Virus genome (UHGV): UHGV-0263856
DNA: 20,499 bases
From: a virus
Reading direction: 5' to 3' (one strand)
The position numbers and the translations under genes are program-made. Below, one piece after another: positions 1 through 19,747 of the stretch (within the stretch, counting starts at the first letter, position 1; each line of letters begins with the position of its first letter). The notes beneath the pieces are model-generated. The model saw nothing but the letters and a program-made list of their open reading frames with translations, ran no database searches and was not told the DNA's origin.

Positions 1-209
1 AACCAGATCACCAGGACGACTACTTGCGCTGATTATCTGCTGCAGCATTTCTGCCGGTTTTTCGCACGGATGTTTCCCGGGATAGTACTGCACCGGTTTA
101 TGCAGTACTATCCCGGGAAACATCCGTGCGAAAAACCGGCAGAAATGCTGCAGCAGATAATCAGCGCAAGTAGTCGTCCTGGTGATCTGGTTGCGGATTT
201 TTTCATGGG
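1..209. repeat. Palindromic duplication of an internal 3'-region fragment of the methyltransferase gene
   Basis: 1-101 is identical to 809-909 (same orientation). 103-209 is the exact reverse complement of 792-898. Arms 1-90 and 103-192 form a perfect inverted repeat around a 12-nt centre (91-102). The left arm is cut by the window start. The + strand ORF 70-285 only re-reads the methyltransferase C-terminal residues and then diverges. Confidence 0.9.
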
Positions 210-337
210 ATCCGCGATTATCCCATATACCTACTCGCTGATTGCCCCTCCGCACAGGGGGATTCACCATGCCAGTTTCTTTTAACAAACTCCCCGCAAA
301 ACAGACAACTGTCAACCGTCTGAATTGTGAGACATTT

Positions 338-363
338 AAAAAAAAGGCCCGCAAAAGCGAGCC
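338..363 (-). terminator. Intrinsic terminator downstream of the tRNA cluster
   Basis: On the - strand RNA: 7-bp stem GGCUCGC/GCGGGCC (one G-U pair), 4-nt loop, then 8 U (A-tract 338-345 on +). Confidence 0.7.
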
Positions 364-377
364 AGGGAAAATAAGTG

Positions 378-454
378 TGGCGCGTTGTACTGGATTCGAA
401 CCAGTGACCGATTGCTTAGAAGGCAATTGCTCTGTCCGGCTGAGCTAACAACGC
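378..454 (-). tRNA. argO: tRNA-Arg (anticodon UCU)
   Basis: Reverse complement reads GCGTTGT-TA-GCTC...GAGC-ATTGC-CTTCTAA-GCAAT...GGTTCGAATCC...ACAACGC-G-CCA. Cloverleaf is complete with a 7-bp acceptor stem and encoded CCA; anticodon loop CUUCUAA. Symbol is by analogy with the 933W-type ileZ-argN-argO cluster (from memory). Confidence 0.85.
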
Positions 455-467
455 AGGGTACAGATAA

Positions 468-544
468 TGGACCGCCATCGAGGACTCGAACCCCGCGCAA
501 CCAGCTTCGAAGGCTGGCGCTCTATCCTGATGAGCTAATGGCGG
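468..544 (-). tRNA. argN: tRNA-Arg (anticodon UCG)
   Basis: Reverse complement gives a cloverleaf with D-stem GCTC/GAGC, anticodon stem CCAGC/GCTGG, loop CUUCGAA, T-loop GGTTCGAGTCC and encoded CCA. The acceptor stem starts with C1-G72, which is unusual, so the exact 5' end is uncertain by 1 nt. Confidence 0.8.
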
Positions 545-551
545 TATGTGA

Positions 552-627
552 TGGTGGCCCTTGCTGGATTTGAACCAGCGACCTGGCGATTATGAGTCGC
601 TCGCTCTCACCACTGAGCTAAAGGGCC
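552..627 (-). tRNA. ileZ: tRNA-Ile2-like (anticodon CAU, lysidine type; Met not formally excluded)
   Basis: Reverse complement GGCCCTT-TA-GCTCAGTGGTGAGAGC-G-AGCGA-CTCATAA-TCGCC...GGTTCAAATCC...AAGGGCC-A-CCA. Near-identical in layout to E. coli tRNA-Ile2 (ileX) as recalled. Confidence 0.85.
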
Positions 628-676
628 GCGCGCAGAATAATAACGTTACGGAATTAATACTGCAATCTCATCCGTT

Positions 677-1726
677 TCAAACGATTAAATCCTGAACTTC
701 CCTGACTGTCTGCTCAAAACGTCCGGTCTCCAGCTCAACACCAATCGCACGACGCCCCAGTGCCATCGCCGCTTTTACCGTTGAACCCGACCCCATGAAA
801 AAATCCGCAACCAGATCACCAGGACGACTACTTGCGCTGATTATCTGCTGCAGCATTTCTGCCGGTTTTTCGCACGGATGTTTCCCGGGATAGTACTGCA
901 CCGGTTTATACGTCCACACATCGGTGTACGGCACCTGCACCGTCACACCGAAATACCGCCGCAAATTTTTATATTCACTCAGCAGTTCCATATACTGCCG
1001 GTTCAGCTCACTGTATGTGCTGACCAGCTGGTGGTGTGGCTTTTCCAGTTCCCCGCGCTGATGTTTCTCTTCTGCCACCCGGGCAAACAGCGACTGTAAT
1101 TTCAGATAATCGCTTTCGTTCGGTAGCTGCCACTGACTGGCACTGAACCAGTGCGGCACCATGTTTTTCTTTCCTGTGGCATCTGCAATCTGTTTTGCCG
1201 TTATCCCCAGGGCAGCGCGCGCATCACGAAAGTAAGCAATCAGCGGGGCCATCACATGCTGTTTCAGTGCCCTGCCCTTCGCCTCATACCCGGCATCTTT
1301 CGGACGATACGGCCCCTGATAATGTTCCGCGAACAGAATGCGCTCTGTGGCGGGGAAATACGCCCGCAGGCTTTCCTTGTTGCATCCGTTCCAGCGTCCG
1401 GACGGCTTCGCCCAGATAATATGGTTCAGCACACTGAAGCGTTCACGCATCATGATTTCGATATCAGATGCCAGGCGATGACCACAGAACAGGTAAAGAC
1501 TTCCGGCAGGTTTCAGCACCCGCCAGAACTGCGCCAGACACTGGTCCAGCCACTTCAGGTAATCATCGTCGCCCTTCCACTGGTTATCCCAGCCCTCAGG
1601 CTTCACTTTAAAGTACGGCGGGTCCGTAACTATCAGGTCAACAGAATTTTCGGGTAACGACCGGATAAATTCCAGGCAGTCGGCGTTGATTAACTCACAA
1701 CTGGATATTTTTACAGTATTAAGCAT
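677..1726 (-). CDS. DNA N6-adenine methyltransferase (beta-class, DPPY motif IV before FxGxG motif I)
   Basis: 349-aa ORF. N-terminal DLIVTDPPYF (motif IV) and C-terminal DFFMGSGST (motif I), the order typical of PF01555-type N6A/N4C MTases. No adjacent restriction gene, so it looks like an orphan phage MTase. Confidence 0.85.
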   Translation of the reverse strand: MLNTVKISSCELINADCLEFIRSLPENSVDLIVTDPPYFKVKPEGWDNQWKGDDDYLKWLDQCLAQFWRVLKPAGSLYLFCGHRLASDIEIMMRERFSVLNHIIWAKPSGRWNGCNKESLRAYFPATERILFAEHYQGPYRPKDAGYEAKGRALKQHVMAPLIAYFRDARAALGITAKQIADATGKKNMVPHWFSASQWQLPNESDYLKLQSLFARVAEEKHQRGELEKPHHQLVSTYSELNRQYMELLSEYKNLRRYFGVTVQVPYTDVWTYKPVQYYPGKHPCEKPAEMLQQIISASSRPGDLVADFFMGSGSTVKAAMALGRRAIGVELETGRFEQTVREVQDLIV

Positions 1727-1860
1727 GGATCATTAAGCCTGTCTCTGATAGGCTCATTCTGCTTTTGCGCAAAGCAGTGGGCCTGAGGTTTGCTTGTGAA
1801 CCCAACGCATGAGCAGATGGCTGGCAGGTGCCGCTAACACCCACCAGCCGCCCATTACCA

Positions 1861-1889
1861 CAAATAAAAAAGCCTTCACTGAGGAAGGC
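1861..1889 (-). terminator. Intrinsic terminator at the end of the small winged-helix ORF
   Basis: - strand RNA: GCCUUC / loop CUCAGU / GAAGGC followed by UUUUUUAUUUG. The stem overlaps the last codons of ORF 1876-2073. Confidence 0.65.
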
Positions 1890-2073
1890 GTCTGTAACAA
1901 CCGAACTGATAATCTGCCAGACCCGCCATAACAAGCTGGGTCAGTATTAACTGGCAACGTTCGCGTGAAAGGTAAGTATTATGCGCAATTTCCCCGACGG
2001 TCGCCGGTTCGGTGACGCTTAATTCATTAAACACCACTCTGGCAGTTTCGGTCATATCCTGCTGTTTTAGCAT
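1876..2073 (-). CDS. Small winged-helix DNA-binding protein (PapI/FaeA-like fold suspected)
   Basis: 65 aa with a TVGEIAHNTYLSRERCQLILTQLVMAGL helix-turn-helix-like segment. Purine-rich stretch before the ATG; bracketed by terminators on both sides, so it is a stand-alone unit. Confidence 0.45.
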   Translation of the reverse strand: MLKQQDMTETARVVFNELSVTEPATVGEIAHNTYLSRERCQLILTQLVMAGLADYQFGCYRRLPQ

Positions 2074-2191
2074 GCCTTTTCCCTTTTCTGGTTAACGTGA
2101 CATACCAATAACTCTTGTCGAAAAAGCCAGCAAGCTGAAAGACCGATATTAATAACTACCAGCGCGTTTAATGTACCGCACTTCGGGCATC

Positions 2192-2216
2192 AAAAAACCC
2201 GCTCAATGGCGGGTTT
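2192..2216 (-). terminator. Intrinsic terminator after the membrane-protein cassette
   Basis: Stem CCCGC/GCGGG (extendable to 7 bp) with a 6-nt loop, A6 on one side and T3 on the other; on the - strand RNA the hairpin is followed by UUUUUU. Sits 20 nt after the stop of 2236-3033. Confidence 0.7.
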
Positions 2217-2235
2217 AATTAATGAGGTAACAACC

Positions 2236-3033
2236 TTAACTTGTTTGATTCTGTACTTCAGTGGCCTTCTTCCCTTCAATACCTGCCTTGAAAGTCTCGA
2301 ATGTTTCAACATTAAACAGCGAAAAAGATTCGATCTGATCGAAGGGCAACACATGCCTAAACTGATAAACTGACAATGGCTCAGAAGTTAATGTGATACC
2401 CTGACTAAGGTAGTAGTCCACATAATTATGCTCAACACAAAAAGTCAGAGTATCTTTATCTCTGTACCCGGACATAAAAGGGATTAGCACCAATGTGTTA
2501 GTATCTAACTGATTGAAACGTGCCTCATCAATCATCCCCACATAGACCTTGCGAGACTTCAGTGTAACCAACAATAACAATCCACGCTCAACTGATTCAA
2601 GAAGGATATTTTCCACGGCACTATGAGCCGCAATTTCTTCAAAAATAGCCTTGCGCTTTTGTGGGTCTTTATGGTTTTTGGTTGCCTCTGATGCCTTCCC
2701 GATACTTACAATAATAGTGAAAGCTATCGACATAGCAGGGAACATGCTCAACCCAAACACTTGCATTTTGAGAAAGTCATGGGCGAAAGTAAAGGGAGCG
2801 TACCAACCAAACAAGTACGCTGGAATGTTCCAAAGTGACATTCCAGCGTACAGAACAACAACCAATAAGGCAGCGATAAGAATACCACTTATGAGAAACT
2901 CACCACCTTTCAGTGCAACATCAAAGTATGCATTCCAACCGATCGCTTTGCTTTGACGGTATCGTGACGGCAAATGGCAGTTGGTATAGTGATAACCACA
3001 AACTAAAACAATAACAATCAGCGCAGCCCACAT
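2236..3033 (-). CDS. Uncharacterised membrane protein (3 predicted N-terminal TM helices plus ~150-aa soluble C-terminal domain)
   Basis: 265-aa ORF. Hydrophobic segments WAALIVIVLVCGY, FLISGILIAALLVVVLYAGM, VFGLSMFPAMSIAFTIIVSIG. AT-rich by eye relative to the replication genes. No motif I recognise. Confidence 0.7.
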   Translation of the reverse strand: MWAALIVIVLVCGYHYTNCHLPSRYRQSKAIGWNAYFDVALKGGEFLISGILIAALLVVVLYAGMSLWNIPAYLFGWYAPFTFAHDFLKMQVFGLSMFPAMSIAFTIIVSIGKASEATKNHKDPQKRKAIFEEIAAHSAVENILLESVERGLLLLVTLKSRKVYVGMIDEARFNQLDTNTLVLIPFMSGYRDKDTLTFCVEHNYVDYYLSQGITLTSEPLSVYQFRHVLPFDQIESFSLFNVETFETFKAGIEGKKATEVQNQTS

Positions 3034-3039
3034 AGAAGA

Positions 3040-3267
3040 CTAACCCTTCTTCTTAGTACTCAATCCCTTAATATTGGCTGCGAAAGCCTTTTGCACATCA
3101 GCGTTGTTGCGATTCAAAACCATCGAACCATTACTATCAATGAAAAACTTGTCACTTTCATGCTTAGCTTCTTTTCCATCACACATGGAAGCTATATCTG
3201 CAATTTTTTTGATGATCTTCTCAGGTGAGAGGATCGCGCGAGCGGCAAGTGTTAGATATTTCGGCAT
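3040..3267 (-). CDS. Small hypothetical protein, first gene of the Q-proximal cassette
   Basis: GGAGG 6-7 nt upstream of the ATG at 3267 (MPKYLTLAARAIL...). The ORF track extends it to 3324 but that start lacks an SD. Stop is 7 nt before the start of 2236-3033. Confidence 0.55.
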   Translation of the reverse strand: MPKYLTLAARAILSPEKIIKKIADIASMCDGKEAKHESDKFFIDSNGSMVLNRNNADVQKAFAANIKGLSTKKKG

Positions 3268-3446
3268 GCTCCCCTCCGTTAACAGATAAAACACAAAAAG
3301 CACACAAACAAAGTATGCGCACATCCTAACCTATGTGGCTAACAACCACTTTCTTTTATAAGATGAGTGTATTACCTAAAGGGTAACTCGGCAATAGCAG
3401 AATAGTTTTAGCAAGGTAAAATCGATGGTCTTTCGCTCAACTTACG

Positions 3447-3475
3447 ACAAAAGATAGCCCGCTCAGCAGCAGGCT
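3447..3475 (-). terminator. Candidate tR'-like intrinsic terminator downstream of Q
   Basis: - strand RNA: AGCCUGC / UGCUGA / GCGGGCU (one G-U) followed by AUCUUUUG, about 65 nt after the Q stop. The PR' promoter itself could not be pinned down. Confidence 0.35.
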
Positions 3476-3539
3476 TTGTTTAGTTTGCCATCGTGTACAA
3501 AATCAGCAAAATATCAGATTTACACGAAATGTACGCGAT

Positions 3540-4235
3540 TTAATTGACTTTTGCAATAACCCGCCGCGAAAAGGTCGCTTTTTGTTGCGATCTTGTTTTC
3601 ATGGTATAAATCAAAGATTCGTTGTCGAGGTTCTTAAAAATGTCGCACATATCACGCCAGTAGTGCGCATAATTGTGGCTCCAGTTGTCTGACTTAACTC
3701 CACACAGTCTGGCAAGTTCCTGTCGCTGGTAGACGTCACACCCAGTAATCCTCCCCCTGACATCCTGCGCCGCCAGCCAGATTAATTTCTTCAGACGCTC
3801 AAGCGTTTTCCCTGTAATTTTTCTGGTGCCAAAATGCACCTGAAACTTATCCCACGCCCATTTCGCAATGACCACCTGATAATCCCAACTCGGATTTTCA
3901 CTGTATACCCACAGTACCCACGCCTTCTGATGCTCTTCAAGAGACAGAACGGCGCGTCGCCATGATGATGTCGAAAACTCAACCGGACTGACTAGGGCAA
4001 TTGATGAACCTTTCGCCAGCGATTGCTTTCCCGGGATCGGTGGATTATCCAGCGTTACCATTTTTCCAGTGACCTTATCGCGGTACCGGATTTTTTTACG
4101 TCTGTAACGCCCTGTATCAAACATGGCATTCTCCTGCCAGGCTTCAAGCTGACCTTTTGTTGCCCCACTCAAATCGGCGGTGGCGATAATGAGTTGCTCA
4201 CGAACAAACTGTAAATACTGGTTATTCATGCGCAC
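3540..4235 (-). CDS. Late-gene antiterminator Q-like protein
   Basis: 231 aa. Last gene of the early-right operon, immediately after rusA and before the terminator-rich late-region entry, as in lambdoid phages. Assignment rests mainly on position and size. Confidence 0.55.
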   Translation of the reverse strand: MRMNNQYLQFVREQLIIATADLSGATKGQLEAWQENAMFDTGRYRRKKIRYRDKVTGKMVTLDNPPIPGKQSLAKGSSIALVSPVEFSTSSWRRAVLSLEEHQKAWVLWVYSENPSWDYQVVIAKWAWDKFQVHFGTRKITGKTLERLKKLIWLAAQDVRGRITGCDVYQRQELARLCGVKSDNWSHNYAHYWRDMCDIFKNLDNESLIYTMKTRSQQKATFSRRVIAKVN

Positions 4236-9704: not shown

Positions 9705-9895
9705 GGACGCACCTCCACCGTAGTTACGTATTTAACCGGGCTACCTTTCATTGAGATGGTTTCACACATCTCTGCCGCTTTCAGTTCCGCTGTTTTTCTG
9801 GATTTATAGCGACGGTGCCAGACAGATACATCCGTGCGAACTGATACATCGTTTCTGTATTCCGTAGTGGAGATGATGATTTCGTAACTAATCAT
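9701..9895 (-). CDS. Hypothetical protein
   Basis: 64-aa ORF, translationally coupled on both sides. Confidence 0.4.
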   Translation of the reverse strand: MISYEIIISTTEYRNDVSVRTDVSVWHRRYKSRKTAELKAAEMCETISMKGSPVKYVTTVEVRP

Positions 9896-10443
9896 GGGCG
9901 AACCTCCTTGTCAGAACCATTCAGCCTGGAATCAACAAGTGCAGCGCCAAAAACAGCATCACCAACACGGTCGTACAGTTTGCTAGCCAGCGGAGATTCA
10001 ACGGCCTTAAGCATTGGATAAAGCTGGCTTGTCCAGATTTGATGGATTTCACGCAAATGCAGGTATACGCCTCTGGCGTTTCGTGCGACAGCTGACATAT
10101 CAGACGCATCGGCACCTGATAAACTCTTCTCCATCAGGTTAAAGGCGTTGATGTATGCCTCTTTGAACCGGGCTGCACGTTTGCCAGTAAAGCCCATAGC
10201 AAGGAACGCGAAGCCATCACGGGTGATTTGATAGCAAGGTAGTTTGCGGCCTGTGCAATCGGTGTAATCACTCACCGAAAAATTGCGGGCAGTGAATGAT
10301 GCGGAGCATTCAAGCGTGCGGATCTTTTTCAGTACATCGTCATGACGCTTGGAGAAGAAGTTGGCAACAGCCAGGGATGAAGTAACAGCCTGACCATCAA
10401 CGATGGCAATTTCAGGTTGAGTGAGGGTTGGGATCGTAGCCAT
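9892..10443 (-). CDS. Rha-family phage regulatory protein
   Basis: FSKRHDDVLKKI and DGFAFLAMGFTGKRAARFKEAYINAFN match the Rha domain as recalled. GGAGG 8 nt before the ATG at 10443. The ORF track extends in frame to 10743 but that N-terminal 100 aa is low-complexity with no SD. Confidence 0.6.
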   Translation of the reverse strand: MATIPTLTQPEIAIVDGQAVTSSLAVANFFSKRHDDVLKKIRTLECSASFTARNFSVSDYTDCTGRKLPCYQITRDGFAFLAMGFTGKRAARFKEAYINAFNLMEKSLSGADASDMSAVARNARGVYLHLREIHQIWTSQLYPMLKAVESPLASKLYDRVGDAVFGAALVDSRLNGSDKEVRP

Positions 10444-10828
10444 GATGGCAGCCTCCGTTGACTGTGGAAAACTTCCACCACCGGAGCTGCGAAACTCACT
10501 GGTGGCAGACTGAACAGGGTTCGCAGTACCGGCGTCAACGGAAACCGGCGAGCCTTTCGGCTCCCCTGCCCAGCCCACCATAATTCTGGCGTGCGTGAGC
10601 GCGGACGATAAAAAAGACGCTGGCGCGTCATATATCGCCGTTGACAATTCCGGGCTGCGACCCCCGGCACCCGCTTTATAAGGTGCAGAGACAGTGTAAC
10701 GTCCCGAAATTGCAGAATCAATATTTGGTCTTGAAATGATCATATAGCTGCTGATATCTTTAGAACTGTTCTTGGATGTTTCGGAGCCGTTTTATGCGAA
10801 ACAGCTCCCCGTTATTGATGTTGAGTGA

Positions 10829-10852
10829 GCCGGGTTACTCCCGGCTTTTTTT
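10829..10852 (+). terminator. Intrinsic terminator oriented opposite to the flanking genes
   Basis: + strand: GCCGGG / TTACT / CCCGGC followed by T7. It abuts the stop codon of the convergent - strand gene 10852-11559. Confidence 0.6.
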
Positions 10853-11559
10853 CACCGCTGCCAACCAATAACCTGAAATAACCCCATTTTCGGGTGATAC
10901 CAGCGAGTCCCTCGCGGTTCTGCTTCCTCCATAACCCGATAAAAAGCAGCCATAAACGGTTCCACAGCAACAATTGCGCGACGTGACAACAATCCGTCCG
11001 GCGTCATGAACTCATGGGTGTCTGTAGGAATCTGATAGGCGTTCACCAGATTGCGGCATTTATCATCTGACAAACCGGTTTTTGCTTTCAGTTGGCGATA
11101 TCCGGCATAGCCCTCACGAATAGTGCCCTTTTTAATTTGCTCGACTGTTTCAGCAACGTGGCTGACTTTTTCTTCCACCTGAGTGATCCGTTTCTGTTGG
11201 CGAACGGCTTCAAGAGCCATCGCGGCAACCATTTCGATTTCGCTCATTGGCTTACGGATCTGTTCTTCCAGTTCGCGCCAGCGATCTACCAGGCGAGCAG
11301 TGAATTCAGGACAGAGCTGTGCGACGACAATGATGCTGTCGCGCTTACCTTGTTCTCCTTCAAACAGGTAATGCTCATATTGAACTTTAAAACCTAAGTT
11401 ATTGATTCTTTCGGAAACCTCAATTTGAGGAGACCGGACAACGCCACCTTTGGCTAATGTTTCAATAGTGCGTTTCACATTGTCATGACGTTTACCCACC
11501 AGCTCTGCGATCTCAACGCTGGTCATGGATGCTTTGCCGTTAAAAATTGCGGTGTTCAT
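10852..11559 (-). CDS. Rha/antirepressor-like phage regulatory protein
   Basis: 235 aa. N-terminal SVEIAELVGKRHDNVKRTIETL (Rha-type motif). AGGAGA 6 nt before the ATG at 11559. Confidence 0.55.
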   Translation of the reverse strand: MNTAIFNGKASMTSVEIAELVGKRHDNVKRTIETLAKGGVVRSPQIEVSERINNLGFKVQYEHYLFEGEQGKRDSIIVVAQLCPEFTARLVDRWRELEEQIRKPMSEIEMVAAMALEAVRQQKRITQVEEKVSHVAETVEQIKKGTIREGYAGYRQLKAKTGLSDDKCRNLVNAYQIPTDTHEFMTPDGLLSRRAIVAVEPFMAAFYRVMEEAEPRGTRWYHPKMGLFQVIGWQR

Positions 11560-11783
11560 TGTTGGTCTCCTGTGGGCTTGTCATCTTCTGTATTCGCTAG
11601 ACTTGGGTGTGTATATGGAATGCTCGGATCCAGATGACAAAGAATGGCAACATCCTCCGGAACACCTCGCGTTTTCCACTTTCCAACACCTTGACTGCCA
11701 CGAGGCCTTCCTTTCTTTGGGAACCTGCGACCAATAGCGGCATTGGTTTTAAATTGAATTTTTAATATTTCATAAAGGGTCAT
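11556..11783 (-). CDS. Small basic ORF in the Cro position (no recognisable HTH)
   Basis: 75 aa, Arg/Lys/Gly/Pro-rich. Its stop overlaps the next ATG (ATGA). Weak SD; coding status uncertain. Confidence 0.3.
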   Translation of the reverse strand: MTLYEILKIQFKTNAAIGRRFPKKGRPRGSQGVGKWKTRGVPEDVAILCHLDPSIPYTHPSLANTEDDKPTGDQQ

Positions 11784-11894
11784 TCTTTAGTCTCACACCA
11801 GATACTTTGTTATCCAACGATGTTAACCACGGGAATCCAAAGTATCAAGAAATTCTGTTACTTTAGTATCAACAGCCATGAGAGGAGAAGAAAA
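11784..11894. promoter_or_regulatory. Divergent immunity control region (OR with PR/PRM candidates)
   Basis: Motif copies at 11803-11811 (reverse orientation), 11840-11848 and 11864-11872. Candidate - strand PR: -35 TTGATA (rc of 11843-11848), 17-nt spacer, -10 TAACAT (rc of 11820-11825). Candidate PRM -10 TAGTAT at 11864-11869. Confidence 0.5.
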
Positions 11895-12551
11895 ATGAAG
11901 TCTTTAGGTGAACGTCTCATCAACGCACGGCAAAAAGCTGGGTTAACACAAGATGCGTTGGCTAAAAAAGCTGGGATCACCAGAGTTGCAATCAGTAAAG
12001 CCGAGCAAGGCCTTACAAAAAGTTTCAACGGTGACACCCTTTTTAAAGTTGCAGCTGCACTGCGGTGTTCACCGCAGTGGCTTCAGAACGGAGATGAAAA
12101 AGATAAGCATTGGGAAAATAATGTTAAGAGCTGCCCACAGAGAGACACAGCACACTCTTACCCTGTAATTAACTGGGTTCAGGCAGGATTATTCGCAACT
12201 TCTGGTGATGACTACAACATGTATGATCAGGATAATTGGAGGCATTCTGTAAAATACGCTGGTGAGAGGGGGTTCTGGCTGGAAGTGCACGGAGACTCAA
12301 TGACTTCGCCCGTAGGAATAACATTTCCTGAAGGAATGTCGATCCTTGTCAACCCAGATAAAGAAGTTTTTTCAGGGTGTTACGTCATCGCCAGAAAAAA
12401 ATCGACCAATGAAGCAACATTCAAAAAATATATTTCTGACATGGGAAAGGCGTTTCTAAAGCCCCTTAATCCACAATATCCAATCATAGAAATGGACAAT
12501 GATTGCGAAATAGTAGGTGTTGTGGTTGATGCCAGGTGGGATATTTTCTGA
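11895..12551 (+). CDS. cI: CI-like prophage repressor (HTH plus S24 LexA-type peptidase domain)
   Basis: AGGAG 8 nt before the ATG at 11895. N-terminal LTQDALAKKAGITRVAISKAEQG (HTH), C-terminal WLEVHGDSMTSP...GCYVIARKK (Ser/Lys autocleavage dyad). Confidence 0.9.
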   Translation: MKSLGERLINARQKAGLTQDALAKKAGITRVAISKAEQGLTKSFNGDTLFKVAAALRCSPQWLQNGDEKDKHWENNVKSCPQRDTAHSYPVINWVQAGLFATSGDDYNMYDQDNWRHSVKYAGERGFWLEVHGDSMTSPVGITFPEGMSILVNPDKEVFSGCYVIARKKSTNEATFKKYISDMGKAFLKPLNPQYPIIEMDNDCEIVGVVVDARWDIF

Positions 12552-12654
12552 CCAGACACAAAACACAAAAAGAAACCAAAGTATCAAAAATCACTTGCCA
12601 CACCTTGATACCTTAGTTACCATAAAACAAAGTTCGTAACTGAGGTATCATCTC
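12552..12654. promoter_or_regulatory. OL/PL-like control region
   Basis: Motif copies at 12579-12587 (aagtatcaa), 12605-12612 (ttgatacc, reverse orientation) and 12643-12650 (ggtatcat). Candidate -35 TTGCCA at 12595-12600. Confidence 0.45.
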
Positions 12655-13155
12655 ATGATCAATAAAGCTACAACTCTTGACTGTCTCGAAGAACTGAAAA
12701 ACCTCGGCAGCCTCATTACACTAATAGCAAAAGCAACACCTGATGCTACGCTCTCTAGCGATATAGAGTCATGCGCAGGACTGGCATGGGATATGACAAA
12801 TAGCATATCCAGAAAGCTATCGTCAGCAATGCTTTTACAGAACAAAAATTCTGCAATCAACAACCGTCTTCGCACCCAACGCGAAGCCTGCGGCTTAACA
12901 ACCGCCGAACTCGCCAGGCTGCTCGATCTCGATGAAGAAATTATCATCCAGTGGGAGAGCGGAGAGTATGAACCAACTATCAGTATGCTTATCCCACTGG
13001 CAAATATTCTTGGCTGCGATCCGATGTGGCTGTTAACTGGTGAGGTTACTCCTCCGGAGCAACCAAAAAGTGAGGAGCAGCAACACCATGACGCATCTCA
13101 ACAAGTTTGCCCCTTATCTCGCGAAGCTCTTCTGCGGAAGAACCAATACCAATAG
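12655..13155 (+). CDS. HTH (XRE-type) protein, first gene of the early-left operon
   Basis: 166 aa. C-terminal half LRTQREACGLTTAELARLLDLDEEIIIQWESGEYEPTISMLIPLANILGCDPMWLL is a classic XRE HTH. N-terminal ~90 aa unassigned. Confidence 0.65.
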   Translation: MINKATTLDCLEELKNLGSLITLIAKATPDATLSSDIESCAGLAWDMTNSISRKLSSAMLLQNKNSAINNRLRTQREACGLTTAELARLLDLDEEIIIQWESGEYEPTISMLIPLANILGCDPMWLLTGEVTPPEQPKSEEQQHHDASQQVCPLSREALLRKNQYQ

Positions 13156-15462: not shown

Positions 15463-15631
15463 CTATCAGGCACTGCGCGAGGCGGCGGAACAGGCAACGC
15501 AAGATGAATGGGTAGCATATATTTGCCGGGTCATAACGGCATTTATCCTGCGCGCACGTCTGAGGGTAGGCATTGCGGATACTTTATTGACTGGCCTGGC
15601 GTCTGTCAGGGGCGGGAGAGCATCAACATGA
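15449..15631 (+). CDS. Ea22-like N-terminal module (possibly the 5' part of a frameshifted Ea22-like gene continuing in 15628-16134)
   Basis: AAAGGAGG SD and GTG start. MSKIDYQALREAAEQATQDEW is paralogous to the start of 16131-16616. The rest of the ORF is Arg-rich and looks out of frame. Confidence 0.35.
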   Translation: MSKIDYQALREAAEQATQDEWVAYICRVITAFILRARLRVGIADTLLTGLASVRGGRAST

Positions 15632-16617: not shown

Positions 16618-17133
16618 ATGGCGTTAACACACCACGAACTCTGTCAGATTGCGTACAAGTTCCTTAAGCGCAACGGGTTCAAGGTTTGCTTTCATGACCG
16701 CTTTGTTGCTGTAACCAGTACCGGAGAACAGCCAGATGCTATGGGATTCAGAAATTCAGCATCATGCCTGATAGAGGCGAAGTGTTCTCGTGCTGACTTG
16801 TTGGCAGATAGAAAAAAGCGTTTCCGTAAAAATCCCTCACTTGGCATGGGCGACTGGCGATTCTTTATTAGTGAGCCGGAAATTATTTCAGTTGAGGATT
16901 TACCTCCCGGCTGGGGATTACTTCACGTTGTTAACGGAAGAGTACGGAAAGTACATGGATGGCCCAGGGGTAATTGCTGTTGGGGTAATCCTGACGATAA
17001 GCCATTTACTGGGAATAAGCAGGTTGAATGCGATTACATGTTATCTGCATTAAGGCGCATGGAGTTGAGAGGGCACCTTAATGAAATATATGACGGTGTG
17101 ATTGTTAATAAGAAAGAAGGAAACGCGGCATGA
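16618..17133 (+). CDS. PD-(D/E)xK-type nuclease-fold protein (MmcB-like suspected)
   Basis: AAAGGAGAG SD before the ATG at 16618. Motif GEQPDAMGF...CLIEAKCSRADL fits the PD...(D/E)xK signature. Confidence 0.5.
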   Translation: MALTHHELCQIAYKFLKRNGFKVCFHDRFVAVTSTGEQPDAMGFRNSASCLIEAKCSRADLLADRKKRFRKNPSLGMGDWRFFISEPEIISVEDLPPGWGLLHVVNGRVRKVHGWPRGNCCWGNPDDKPFTGNKQVECDYMLSALRRMELRGHLNEIYDGVIVNKKEGNAA

Positions 17134-18433: not shown

Positions 18434-19747
18434 ATGGATAAAGTCAAATATCCAACAGGCGTCGAAAACCACGGCGGCACATTACGCATCTGGTTTAATT
18501 TTAAAGGTAAACGTGTCAGGGAAAATCTTGGTGTCCCTGACACTGCCAAGAACAGGAAGATCGCCGGGGAACTGCGGACATCAGTATGTTTTGCCATCCG
18601 CACAGGAAGCTTTGATTATGCTGCACAGTTCCCTGACTCCCCCAACCTTCAGGCTTTTGGGGTAAGTAAAAAAGAAATTACGGTGAAGGAACTTGAAGAA
18701 AAGTGGCTGGATCTGAAACGAATGGAAATCTCTGCAAATGCATTCAATCGCTATGAATCCGTTGCAAGAACGATGGTTCCGAAAATTGGAGGCAGTAGAC
18801 TGGTGTCATCGGTAACCAAAGAGGAATTGCTGTATATCAGGAAAGATTTGCTTACCGGGTATCAGAATTCAACGAAAAACAAAGCAGCAGCAAAAGGACG
18901 GAGCGTCGTTACTGTAAATTATTACATGACGACAATCGCTGGAATGTTTCAGTTTGCTGCAGATCACGGTTACTTAGAAGCAAATCCCTTCCAGGGAATT
19001 AAGCCTCTTAAAAGAGCCAGGGCAGAGCCAGATCCGCTAACTCGTGACGAATTTATTCGCCTGATAGATGCTTGCCGACATCAGCAGACGAAAAACCTGT
19101 GGTCATTGGCTGTGTACACAGGAATGCGTCACGGTGAACTGGTCTCCCTGGCCTGGGAAGATATCGATCTGAAGGCAGGAACAATTACCATCAGGCGCAA
19201 TTATACGAAACTTGGTGAGTTCACTCTACCGAAAACTGAAGCAAGCACAAACAGGGTTGTGCACCTTATCCAGCCCGCTATCAGTGTCCTGAAAAATCAG
19301 GCTGAAATGACAAGACTGGGTAAGCAGTACAACATCAAGGTGCAACTACGTGAATATGGACGTTCAGTGAACCATGAATGTACTTTCGTGTTTAACCCTC
19401 AAGTGGTTAGAAAAAGCGAACAGGTAGGTTTTGTCTACAAAGTCGATTCTGTAGGTGACTCATGGGAAACAGCCATTAAGCGTGCAGGGATCAGGCATCG
19501 AAAGGCATACCAGTCACGACACACTTATGCGTGCTGGTCATTATCTGCCGGAGCAAACCCAAGCTTCATTGCCAGCCAGATGGGCCATGCAAGTGCCCAG
19601 ATGGTATTCAATGTATACGGAGCATGGATGACTGACAGCAATGCAGAACAGATCGCAATGCTGAATCAGAAGCTGACAGATTATGTCCCAATGATGCCCC
19701 ATAGTCACCAAAGTGACACCAGAGGCTTATTAAAATCAGTAAGTTAA
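18434..19747 (+). CDS. int: Tyrosine-type site-specific integrase
   Basis: 437 aa. GGAGG SD. C-terminal catalytic region TGMRHGEL...SRHTYACW...GHAS...VYGAWM (R, HxxR, Y). Confidence 0.9.
   Translation: MDKVKYPTGVENHGGTLRIWFNFKGKRVRENLGVPDTAKNRKIAGELRTSVCFAIRTGSFDYAAQFPDSPNLQAFGVSKKEITVKELEEKWLDLKRMEISANAFNRYESVARTMVPKIGGSRLVSSVTKEELLYIRKDLLTGYQNSTKNKAAAKGRSVVTVNYYMTTIAGMFQFAADHGYLEANPFQGIKPLKRARAEPDPLTRDEFIRLIDACRHQQTKNLWSLAVYTGMRHGELVSLAWEDIDLKAGTITIRRNYTKLGEFTLPKTEASTNRVVHLIQPAISVLKNQAEMTRLGKQYNIKVQLREYGRSVNHECTFVFNPQVVRKSEQVGFVYKVDSVGDSWETAIKRAGIRHRKAYQSRHTYACWSLSAGANPSFIASQMGHASAQMVFNVYGAWMTDSNAEQIAMLNQKLTDYVPMMPHSHQSDTRGLLKSVS

What the first reader, a model, noticed from the sequence alone, without database searches (positions are those of the whole stretch)
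11800..12650. Repeated (A/G)GTATCAA operator-like motifs on both sides of cI
Copies at 11803-11811 (reverse), 11840-11848, 11864-11872, 12579-12587, 12605-12612 (reverse, one mismatch) and 12643-12650 cluster exactly where OR and OL are expected, overlapping the candidate PR -35 and the PL region. They are likely the repressor's binding half-sites.
Basis: seen in the sequence. Interest (0 to 1): 0.4.

Follow-up and report, generated by a model that had tools for sequence, protein, structure and literature searches.

The report
Repressor operators of a phiP27-type prophage
The repeated GTATCAA-like words are real and are the better-conserved halves of six 14-base mirror-symmetric binding sites that flank the repressor gene of an E. 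coli prophage, an ordinary lambda-style genetic switch whose exact sites I found described nowhere.

Summary
RGTATCAA occurs 5 times in the window against 0.97 expected, and 4 of the 5 lie in the 214 intergenic bases either side of cI. The 8-mer is only part of the unit. The unit is a 14-bp dyad, ideal form GATACTT·AAGTATC, loosely GWWAC-N4-GTWWC. There are three copies between cro and cI (11801-14, 11833-46, 11857-70) and three after cI (12572-85, 12607-20, 12636-49).

A palindromic matrix trained without a given site still ranks that site in the top 6 of 20,486 positions. Across family variants, site columns vary far less than other intergenic columns (22/84 against 86/115). The same sites, with the same 32/24-bp spacing in OR, recur in Klebsiella, Providencia, Yersinia, Photorhabdus, Salmonella and Citrobacter relatives that share the repressor's recognition helix.

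The repressor is a lambda-CI homologue: HTH plus S24 peptidase, Ala-Gly site, Ser/Lys dyad. The divergent 75-aa ORF models as an all-alpha Cro. Candidate PR and PL promoters overlap the sites.

This is a new member of a known kind. No binding has been tested.

The parts
11801..11814 (.). Operator Oa (OR1 position, nearest cro): GATACTTTGTTATC. It lies just downstream of the PR -10, about -1 to +13 of the inferred PR start.
   Evidence: Leave-one-out PWM rank 6 of 20,486. A perfect palindrome, GATACTTAAGTATC, occupies this position in Stx2 phage 12E129. Present at the same place in all relatives.
11833..11846 (.). Operator Ob (OR2 position): GAATCCAAAGTATC. The right half is a perfect half-site and the left half is degenerate. 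It overlaps the PR -35 and spacer.
   Evidence: Leave-one-out rank 6. The 14-mer is identical in phiP27, Klebsiella, Providencia, Yersinia, Salmonella and Citrobacter relatives. It forms a 19-nt direct repeat with Od (D2).
11857..11870 (.). Operator Oc (OR3 position, nearest cI): GTTACTTTAGTATC, the best dyad in the window. It covers the candidate PRM -10.
   Evidence: Top PWM score in the window (19.2 bits) and leave-one-out rank 2. Exact match to GWWAC-N4-GTWWC. Columns are nearly invariant across 7 lineages.
12572..12585 (.). Operator Od (OL3 position, nearest cI): GAAACCAAAGTATC, upstream of the PL -35.
   Evidence: Leave-one-out rank 2. In relative L105 this position holds a near-perfect dyad, GATACTTTAGTATC. 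Exact match to the degenerate dyad.
12607..12620 (.). Operator Oe (OL2 position): GATACCTTAGTTAC, inside the PL spacer and -10.
   Evidence: Leave-one-out rank 4. Only 2 of its 14 columns vary among 28 family variants. Conserved across genera.
12636..12649 (.). Operator Of (OL1 position): GTAACTGAGGTATC, about +7 to +20 of the inferred PL start and just before the next gene's ATG.
   Evidence: Leave-one-out rank 6. 93% inverted repeat with Oe (I3). Only 1 of its 14 columns varies among 28 family variants. No site scores at this position in the Klebsiella, Yersinia, Salmonella and Citrobacter relatives.
11820..11848 (-). Candidate PR: -35 TTGATA (11848-11843), 17-nt spacer, -10 TAACAT (11825-11820). 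It reads toward cro.
   Evidence: Consensus scan. The same geometry was found independently by the scan in the Providencia and Klebsiella relatives (TTGATA-17-TAAATT and TTGATA-17-TACTAT). A consensus match only; not mapped experimentally.
12595..12623 (+). Candidate PL: -35 TTGCCA (12595-12600), 17-nt spacer, -10 TACCAT (12618-12623). It reads into the early-left operon.
   Evidence: Consensus scan. The Providencia relative has TTGACA-17-TACATT at the same place. The -35 block is conserved among family variants.
11856..11864 (+). Candidate PRM: extended -10, TGnTACTTT, embedded in Oc. It reads toward cI. This is inference only.
   Evidence: T76, G77 and T79-T84 of alignment A4 are invariant in all 7 lineages, including Serratia. 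The T lies outside the 14-mer and is not conserved before the other five operators. No canonical -35/-10 pair was found on this strand.
11895..12551 (+). cI: a 218-aa lambda-CI-type repressor.
   Evidence: Pfam HTH_3 plus Peptidase_S24. Lambda CI 3bdn E = 9e-34; N-terminal domain matches 434 Cro and P22 c2 at E about 1e-9. Ala97-Gly98, Ser135 and Lys177/178 occupy the positions of lambda's cleavage site and catalytic dyad.
11556..11783 (-). cro-like gene: 75 aa, first gene of the PR operon.
12655..13155 (+). First gene of the PL operon: a 166-aa HTH_3 protein (PHROG 'CII-like regulator', DicA-like). Unlikely to be the binder of these sites.
   Evidence: Phage phi467 carries the same HTH module next to a different repressor and has no such sites.

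Best explanation
The window is a lambdoid prophage inserted at yecE of E. coli, and its immunity region is of the phiP27 type. The repeated words are the better-conserved halves of six 14-bp dyad-symmetric operators. The ideal form is GATACTT·AAGTATC; the loose form is GWWAC-N4-GTWWC.

Three operators form OR between the divergent cro-like gene and cI. Three form OL just downstream of cI.

Inferred mechanism:
- Dimers of the CI-type repressor bind these sites through a 434/P22-like helix-turn-helix.
- At OR, Ob covers the -35 and spacer of PR and Oa covers its start site.
- At OL, Oe covers the spacer and -10 of PL and Of lies just downstream of its start.
- Occupancy therefore shuts off both early operons and maintains lysogeny.
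- Oc lies over the likely cI promoter and would give negative autoregulation.
- The lambda-like C-terminal domain suggests cooperative binding, and possibly OL-OR looping across about 775 bp.
- RecA-stimulated self-cleavage at Ala97-Gly98 would lift repression.
- The Cro-like protein probably competes for the same sites.

Shown by computation: the sites exist, they are non-random, conserved and correctly placed, and the protein families are as named. Inferred: who binds, site affinities, cooperativity, and the exact promoter starts.
For: - Enrichment and clustering of the 8-mer.
- The degenerate dyad GWWAC-N4-GTWWC has 4 exact hits, all in OR or OL, against 0.17 expected.
- With a leave-one-out palindromic PWM, every left-out site stays in the top 6 of 20,486 positions. 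A matrix trained on OL alone recovers the three OR sites as the only other hits above threshold, against 0.17 expected per shuffle.
- Among 24 (OR) and 28 (OL) distinct family variants, 22 of 84 operator columns vary against 86 of 115 other intergenic columns (Fisher P = 1e-11).
- In seven further lineages (IMG/VR contig L105, Klebsiella, Providencia, Yersinia, Photorhabdus, Salmonella, Citrobacter) CI keeps the helix-3 sequence V/I-T/S-RVAISKAE. In each, the highest-scoring hits of the window-trained matrix lie in that locus's OR and OL, 4 to 6 sites per locus, although the weakest site is sometimes outscored by a hit elsewhere. OR spacing is always 32/24 bp, although the spacer DNA has diverged.
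- Relatives with an altered CI helix 3 (Serratia L004, L130) have shifted half-sites (TAAAC...GTTTA; ARRTTWC), while the Cro-like helix is almost unchanged.
- phi467 shares the downstream HTH module but has another repressor and no such sites.
- Protein identities: CI and the Cro fold.
- Promoter overlap and genome map.
Against: - No binding, footprint or transcript data exist for this immunity type in anything I could read.
- Promoters are consensus matches only (9 of 12), and PRM is a guess.
- Ob and Od have poor left halves (GAATCCA, GAAACCA). They could be weak sites, or could be read differently by CI and Cro.
- The conservation test treats alignment columns as independent and the variants as unrelated, which overstates its significance.
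- CI and the Cro-like gene are always co-inherited in the data, so the computations cannot separate their contributions cleanly. The helix-3 covariation rests on two lineages.
Confidence: 0.85

Rival explanations
1. The sites are targets of the Cro-like protein only, and CI acts elsewhere or by another route.
For: The Cro-like gene is always co-inherited with this cI type, so co-occurrence alone cannot exclude it. Its model is a DNA-binding all-alpha Cro fold.
Against: The Cro-like recognition helix (QxVGKW) is nearly invariant even in Serratia L004 and L130, where the half-sites shift and CI helix 3 changes. A 3+3 arrangement on both sides of cI that covers PR and PL is what a maintenance repressor needs. 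In characterised lambdoid phages CI and Cro share the same operators (established knowledge of lambda, 434 and P22).
Confidence: 0.07
2. The sites are bound by the 166-aa HTH protein encoded just downstream (12655-13155) and form an autoregulatory or CII-like circuit.
For: It has an HTH_3 domain and a PHROG 'CII-like regulator' match. Three of the sites lie immediately upstream of its gene.
Against: phi467 encodes a near-identical HTH module (one substitution within it, plus one just after) next to a different repressor. Its intergenic regions carry different repeats, and the best matrix score there is 6.7 bits against 15-19 bits in the window. Relatives such as Klebsiella L122 and Salmonella L128 keep the sites but have different genes after cI.
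Confidence: 0.03
3. The repeats are chance, or are only promoter -35 elements (TTGATA = reverse complement of TATCAA), and are not protein operators.
For: TTGATAC appears at four of the sites, and one of those copies is the predicted PR -35.
Against: Only one TTGATA has a properly spaced -10. Similarity extends over 14 bp with dyad symmetry. Enrichment, leave-one-out ranking and cross-genus conservation are far beyond chance.
Confidence: 0.02

Closest known systems
Bacteriophage lambda OR/OL-CI-Cro switch
   Same: - Gene order is the same: cro <- PR/OR/PRM -> cI ... OL/PL -> early-left genes -> xis, int.
- There are three dyad operators at each of OR and OL, overlapping the early promoters.
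- The repressor's C-terminal domain is homologous to the lambda CI C-terminal domain (E about 4e-31), with the Ala-Gly site and Ser/Lys dyad.
- The 24-bp spacing between the two cI-proximal OR sites resembles lambda's 23-24 bp (my own knowledge).
   Different: - The operators are 14 bp rather than 17 bp, and share no sequence with the lambda consensus.
- The N-terminal domain is closer to 434 Cro and P22 c2 than to lambda CI.
- The third OR site is 32 bp away and lies over or downstream of the PR start rather than over the -10.
- OL is only about 775 bp from OR, because no rex-like genes intervene.
- The first PL gene is an HTH regulator, and no N homologue was noted.
- Cro is of the all-alpha type, not lambda's alpha+beta type.
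Phage 434 and P22 repressor/Cro operator systems
   Same: The N-terminal HTH_3 domain aligns with 434 Cro (E = 1e-9), P22 c2 (E = 2e-9) and 434 repressor. Operator length is 14 bp, as in 434, with conserved outer bases and a variable centre (my own knowledge of 434). The Cro has the all-alpha P22/N15 type of fold.
   Different: The half-site sequence differs: AAGTATC here, against ACAA(T/G) for 434 and the TTAAG type for P22. No 434-type dyads occur in OR or OL. P22-like relatives in the same search carry P22-type repeats instead. The recognition helix is TRVAISKAEQ, against QQSIQLIEA (434 Cro) and SNVAISQWER (P22 c2).
Immunity region of Stx2e phage phiP27, and of Stx1a/Stx2a phages with the same cI
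   Same: DNA identity across the region is 95.7% to phiP27 and 85-86% to Stx1a/Stx2a phages. All six sites are present at the same spacing. This is the same immunity type.
   Different: The window's prophage is an E. coli SF-088-type element at yecE, and I did not see stx in the annotation. Individual sites differ slightly: Oa is a perfect palindrome in Stx2_12E129 and weaker in phiP27. I found no published description of these operators. The phiP27 genome paper itself could not be read.

Membership tests
Lambdoid CI/Cro immunity switch | Repressor with an N-terminal HTH and a C-terminal S24 (LexA-like) self-cleaving domain, with an Ala-Gly site and a Ser/Lys dyad | tested here: met
   Pfam HTH_3 (E = 2e-14) plus Peptidase_S24 (E = 3e-22). 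Lambda CI 3bdn E = 9e-34, with VQAG and G(D/N)SMT aligned. Ala97-Gly98, Ser135 and Lys177/178 located.
Lambdoid CI/Cro immunity switch | Divergently transcribed small Cro-type DNA-binding protein as the first gene of the rightward operon | tested here: met
Lambdoid CI/Cro immunity switch | Several dyad-symmetric operators in the cI-cro intergenic region that overlap PR and PRM | tested here: met
   Three 14-bp dyads at 11801, 11833 and 11857. They overlap the TTGATA-17-TAACAT promoter. PRM is only inferred.
Lambdoid CI/Cro immunity switch | A second operator cluster (OL) overlapping the leftward early promoter on the other side of cI | tested here: met
   Three dyads at 12572, 12607 and 12636 around TTGCCA-17-TACCAT.
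Lambdoid CI/Cro immunity switch | The repressor physically binds the operators and represses PR and PL | not testable with these tools
   Only indirect evidence exists: conservation and co-occurrence of the sites with CI helix 3 across genera.
Lambdoid CI/Cro immunity switch | Cooperative binding to adjacent sites, or OL-OR looping, through the C-terminal domain | not testable with these tools
   Homology to the lambda CI C-terminal domain (E about 4e-31) and invariant 32/24-bp OR spacing in every lineage examined are suggestive only.
Lambda immunity specificity (imm-lambda) | 17-bp operators of consensus TATCACCGCCAGTGGTA | tested here: not met
   No match within 3 mismatches anywhere in the window.
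434 immunity specificity | 14-bp operators ACAA-N6-TTGT | tested here: not met
   One match, at 19247, far from cI, no more than chance gives.
phiP27-type immunity group | Near-identical cI, cro-like gene and operator set | tested here: met
   95.7% DNA identity to phiP27 over the region. CI 97-98% and Cro-like 91% identical. All six sites present at the same spacing. Shared immunity in vivo is not tested.

The most novel reading that the evidence does not exclude
The circuit may be wired differently from lambda in ways that matter:
- A start-site-proximal operator (Oa at about +5 of PR).
- A cI promoter of the extended -10 type buried inside Oc.
- An unusually conserved asymmetric middle site (GAATCCAAAGTATC), which might be read differently by CI and by the atypical Cro. 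That Cro carries a basic FPKKGRPRG insertion between its HTH helices.
- In the E. coli clade only, loss of the terminator after cI. CI bound at OL would then also act as a roadblock, gating read-through from the cI transcript into a PL operon that begins with a CII-like HTH regulator instead of N.
Probability: 0.15. Interest if true: 0.4.

Novelty: new member of a known kind. Interest (0 to 1): 0.22.

Why it matters
This immunity type is carried by 197 of 5,426 complete E. coli genomes. It is also carried by Stx2e phage phiP27 and by several Stx1a and Stx2a phages, and in Stx phages repressor release controls toxin production.

Knowing the operator sequence and layout has three uses:
- Heteroimmunity groups can be predicted from sequence.
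- PR/PL reporter constructs can be designed.
- Orthogonal repressor-operator pairs become available.

Conceptually it is a further instance of the lambda paradigm, not a new mechanism.

Tried and rejected
Rejected in favour of a 14-bp dyad. The repeat finder's arms end at the 14-mers, and relatives show perfect or near-perfect palindromes at Oa and Od.
- **A seventh site at 11781-11794** (CATTCTTTAGTCTC, 7-10 bits). Not conserved in the Stx-phage relatives, so treated as chance.
- **Weak hits at 15578 and 17032** (10-12 bits). One is inside a gene and the other in pseudogene DNA. Not pursued.
- **Separating Cro from CI through mosaic phages.** This failed, because every phage record with the Cro-like gene also has this cI type.
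- **Literature.** An exact-sequence search returned only irrelevant plant papers. Stx-phage comparative papers mention operators only for lambda, 933W and H-19B. The phiP27 genome paper is not held.
- **A canonical PRM.** No -35/-10 pair on the cI strand passed the scan. TAGTAT inside Oc was rejected as the -10 because its key second base is T or G in the Stx-phage relatives.
- **The perfect 10-bp inverted repeat inside cI** (12058-12079). Not conserved.

Full report
**Context.** The window is a lambdoid prophage of E. coli. It is 100% identical to strain SF-088 over the region tested. The SF-088 annotation gives this order: holin, tRNAs, Q-type antiterminator, RusA, replicative helicase, two Rha-family genes and a small ORF, all on the minus strand; then cI, an HTH gene, early-left genes, xis, int and bacterial yecE on the plus strand. 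The immunity region is 95.7% identical to Stx2e phage phiP27 and 85-86% identical to several Stx1a and Stx2a phages. It occurs in 197 of 5,426 complete E. coli genomes.

**The observation.** RGTATCAA occurs exactly five times in 20.5 kb against 0.97 expected, and no shuffle in 100 reaches five.
- Four copies lie in the 214 intergenic bases flanking cI, at 11841-48, 11865-72, 12580-87 and 12605-12 (reverse strand); binomial P = 6e-8.
- A one-mismatch copy, GGTATCAT, is at 12644-51.
- The reverse-strand copy near 11803 is really AGTATCTG at 11799-11806.

**What the unit is.** Reading both strands and an unbiased repeat search show that each 8-mer is one arm of a 14-bp imperfect palindrome.

| Site | Coordinates | Sequence |
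|---|---|---|
| Oa | 11801-14 | GATACTTTGTTATC |
| Ob | 11833-46 | GAATCCAAAGTATC |
| Oc | 11857-70 | GTTACTTTAGTATC |
| Od | 12572-85 | GAAACCAAAGTATC |
| Oe | 12607-20 | GATACCTTAGTTAC |
| Of | 12636-49 | GTAACTGAGGTATC |

- The twelve half-sites give W-R-G-T-W-W-C, reading from the centre outward. G3, T4 and C7 are the most constant positions.
- In Stx2 phage 12E129, Oa is the perfect palindrome GATACTTAAGTATC.
- In contig L105 (CI 86% identical, same recognition helix), Od is GATACTTTAGTATC.
- So the degenerate halves in the window are decayed versions of a full dyad.
At Ob it completes the PR -35, and A is only weakly preferred in the two flanking positions of the twelve half-sites (read by eye).

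**Is it more than chance?**
- GWWAC-N4-GTWWC has four exact hits, all among the six sites, against 0.17 expected.
- With a palindromic weight matrix built from five sites, the sixth always ranks within the top 6 of 20,486 positions.
- A matrix built only from the three OL sites finds the three OR sites as the only other positions above their lowest score, against 0.17 per shuffled window and at most 2 in 200 shuffles.
- The next-best positions, 15578 and 17032, score 9-12 bits. The real sites score 13-19 bits.

**Conservation.** There are 24 distinct OR and 28 distinct OL sequences from phages and prophages whose CI is at least 85% identical. Among them, 22 of 84 operator columns vary against 86 of 115 other intergenic columns (Fisher P = 1e-11). 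The variants are related to one another, so that P value is optimistic.

Deeper comparisons are stronger. I used the small divergent ORF as a handle to fetch loci from Klebsiella, Providencia, Yersinia, Photorhabdus, Salmonella and Citrobacter.
- Each locus has an S24/HTH repressor whose helix 3 reads V-T/S-RVAISKAE.
- In each, the highest-scoring hits of the window-trained matrix lie in that locus's own OR and OL: five sites in Klebsiella, Yersinia and Citrobacter, four in Salmonella, six in Providencia and Photorhabdus. In some loci the weakest site is outscored by a hit elsewhere.
- OR site spacing is always 32 and 24 bp, although the spacer sequence has diverged.
- Two relatives with an altered CI helix 3 have shifted half-sites: Serratia L004 (SRMAISKIEM) has TAAACTTTAGTTTA, and L130 (SRVTISKIEL) has ARRTTWC.
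- In those two, the putative recognition helix of the small ORF is almost unchanged.
- That pattern favours CI as the specificity partner, but it rests on two lineages.

**The proteins.**
- *cI (11895-12551).* It has HTH_3 plus Peptidase_S24. It matches full-length lambda CI (E = 9e-34) and the lambda C-terminal domain (E about 4e-31), with the VQAG cleavage motif and the GxSM and TFKK catalytic motifs aligned. Its N-terminal domain is closest to 434 Cro, P22 c2 and 434 repressor.
- *The 166-aa HTH protein after cI.* It is unlikely to be the binder. phi467 carries a near-identical HTH module beside a different repressor and has different repeats.

**Promoters (consensus matches, not mapped).**
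- *PR.* TTGATA-17-TAACAT on the minus strand, 11848 to 11820. Ob covers its -35 and spacer. Oa covers about -1 to +13. Oc lies upstream at about -44 to -57.
- *PL.* TTGCCA-17-TACCAT at 12595-12623. Od is upstream, Oe covers the spacer and -10, and Of lies at about +7 to +20.
- The same two geometries are found independently by the scan in the Providencia and Klebsiella relatives.
- *PRM.* No canonical cI promoter was found. The best candidate is an extended -10, TGnTACTTT, at 11856-11864 inside Oc. Its TG and hexamer are invariant in all seven aligned lineages.

**Mechanism.** The best reading is a standard CI/Cro switch.
- CI dimers on OR and OL silence PR and PL.
- Occupancy of Oc limits cI transcription.
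- The lambda-like C-terminal domain may support cooperativity and looping over about 775 bp.
- RecA-stimulated cleavage induces the prophage.
- Cro competes for the same sites.

Computation shows site existence, placement, conservation and protein family. Binding, affinity order, cooperativity and transcription starts are inferred.

**Comparison and novelty.** The system works like lambda, 434 and P22, and passes every membership test that can be run here. It is not imm-lambda or imm-434. I found no description of these operators in the papers available, and the phiP27 genome paper could not be read. I rate it a new member of a known kind, of low to moderate interest.

Noticed in passing
window 11556-11783 (-): The cro-position protein belongs to an unnamed family: PHROG 4749 'unknown function', with 42 relatives across Enterobacterales, all 'hypothetical'. 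It models as an all-alpha Cro with an unusual basic insertion (FPKKGRPRG) between the two HTH helices. Its VGKW...GVPEDVAILCH core is invariant.
   Followed up: partly
window 12552-12571; compare L122, L124, L126-L129, L004: The Klebsiella, Providencia, Yersinia, Photorhabdus, Salmonella, Citrobacter and Serratia relatives all have a GC hairpin plus T-run terminator immediately after cI. The scan confirmed it for Providencia and Klebsiella; the others were read by eye. The E. coli/phiP27 clade has none, so cI transcripts might read into the PL operon unless CI at OL blocks them.
   Followed up: partly
window 12655-13155 (+), especially about 12871-13027: The first PL gene encodes a 166-aa HTH protein (PHROG 'CII-like regulator', DicA-like), not an N-type antiterminator. 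Its HTH module is near-identical in phi467 and in some Stx2a phages that have other repressors, so a mosaic joint lies inside the gene.
   Followed up: partly
window 12058-12079: A perfect 10-bp inverted repeat, CACTGCGGTG/CACCGCAGTG with a 2-nt gap, lies inside the cI coding sequence. It is imperfect in phiP27-type variants and lost in the Stx-phage and other relatives, so it is probably lineage-specific chance.
   Followed up: yes
window 15578-15591 and 17032-17045: Two weaker matches to the operator matrix, GATACTTTATTGAC and GATTACATGTTATC (10-12 bits), lie in the early-left region. One is inside an Ea22-like pseudogene and the other in pseudogene or intergenic DNA.
   Followed up: no
window 9892-11559 (-): Two Rha-family genes follow cro directly, and the second also has an Ash domain. 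This resembles the Rha-type 'Eru' early regions described for some Stx phages (PMC8951638). No cII homologue was noted on this side.
   Followed up: no
window about 1-4200 (from the SF-088 annotation): Between the Q-type antiterminator and the holin lie three tRNA genes (Arg, Arg, Ile), a frameshifted DNA methyltransferase and a truncated DUF1737 gene. Related converting phages carry stx in this position. No stx is annotated here.
   Followed up: no
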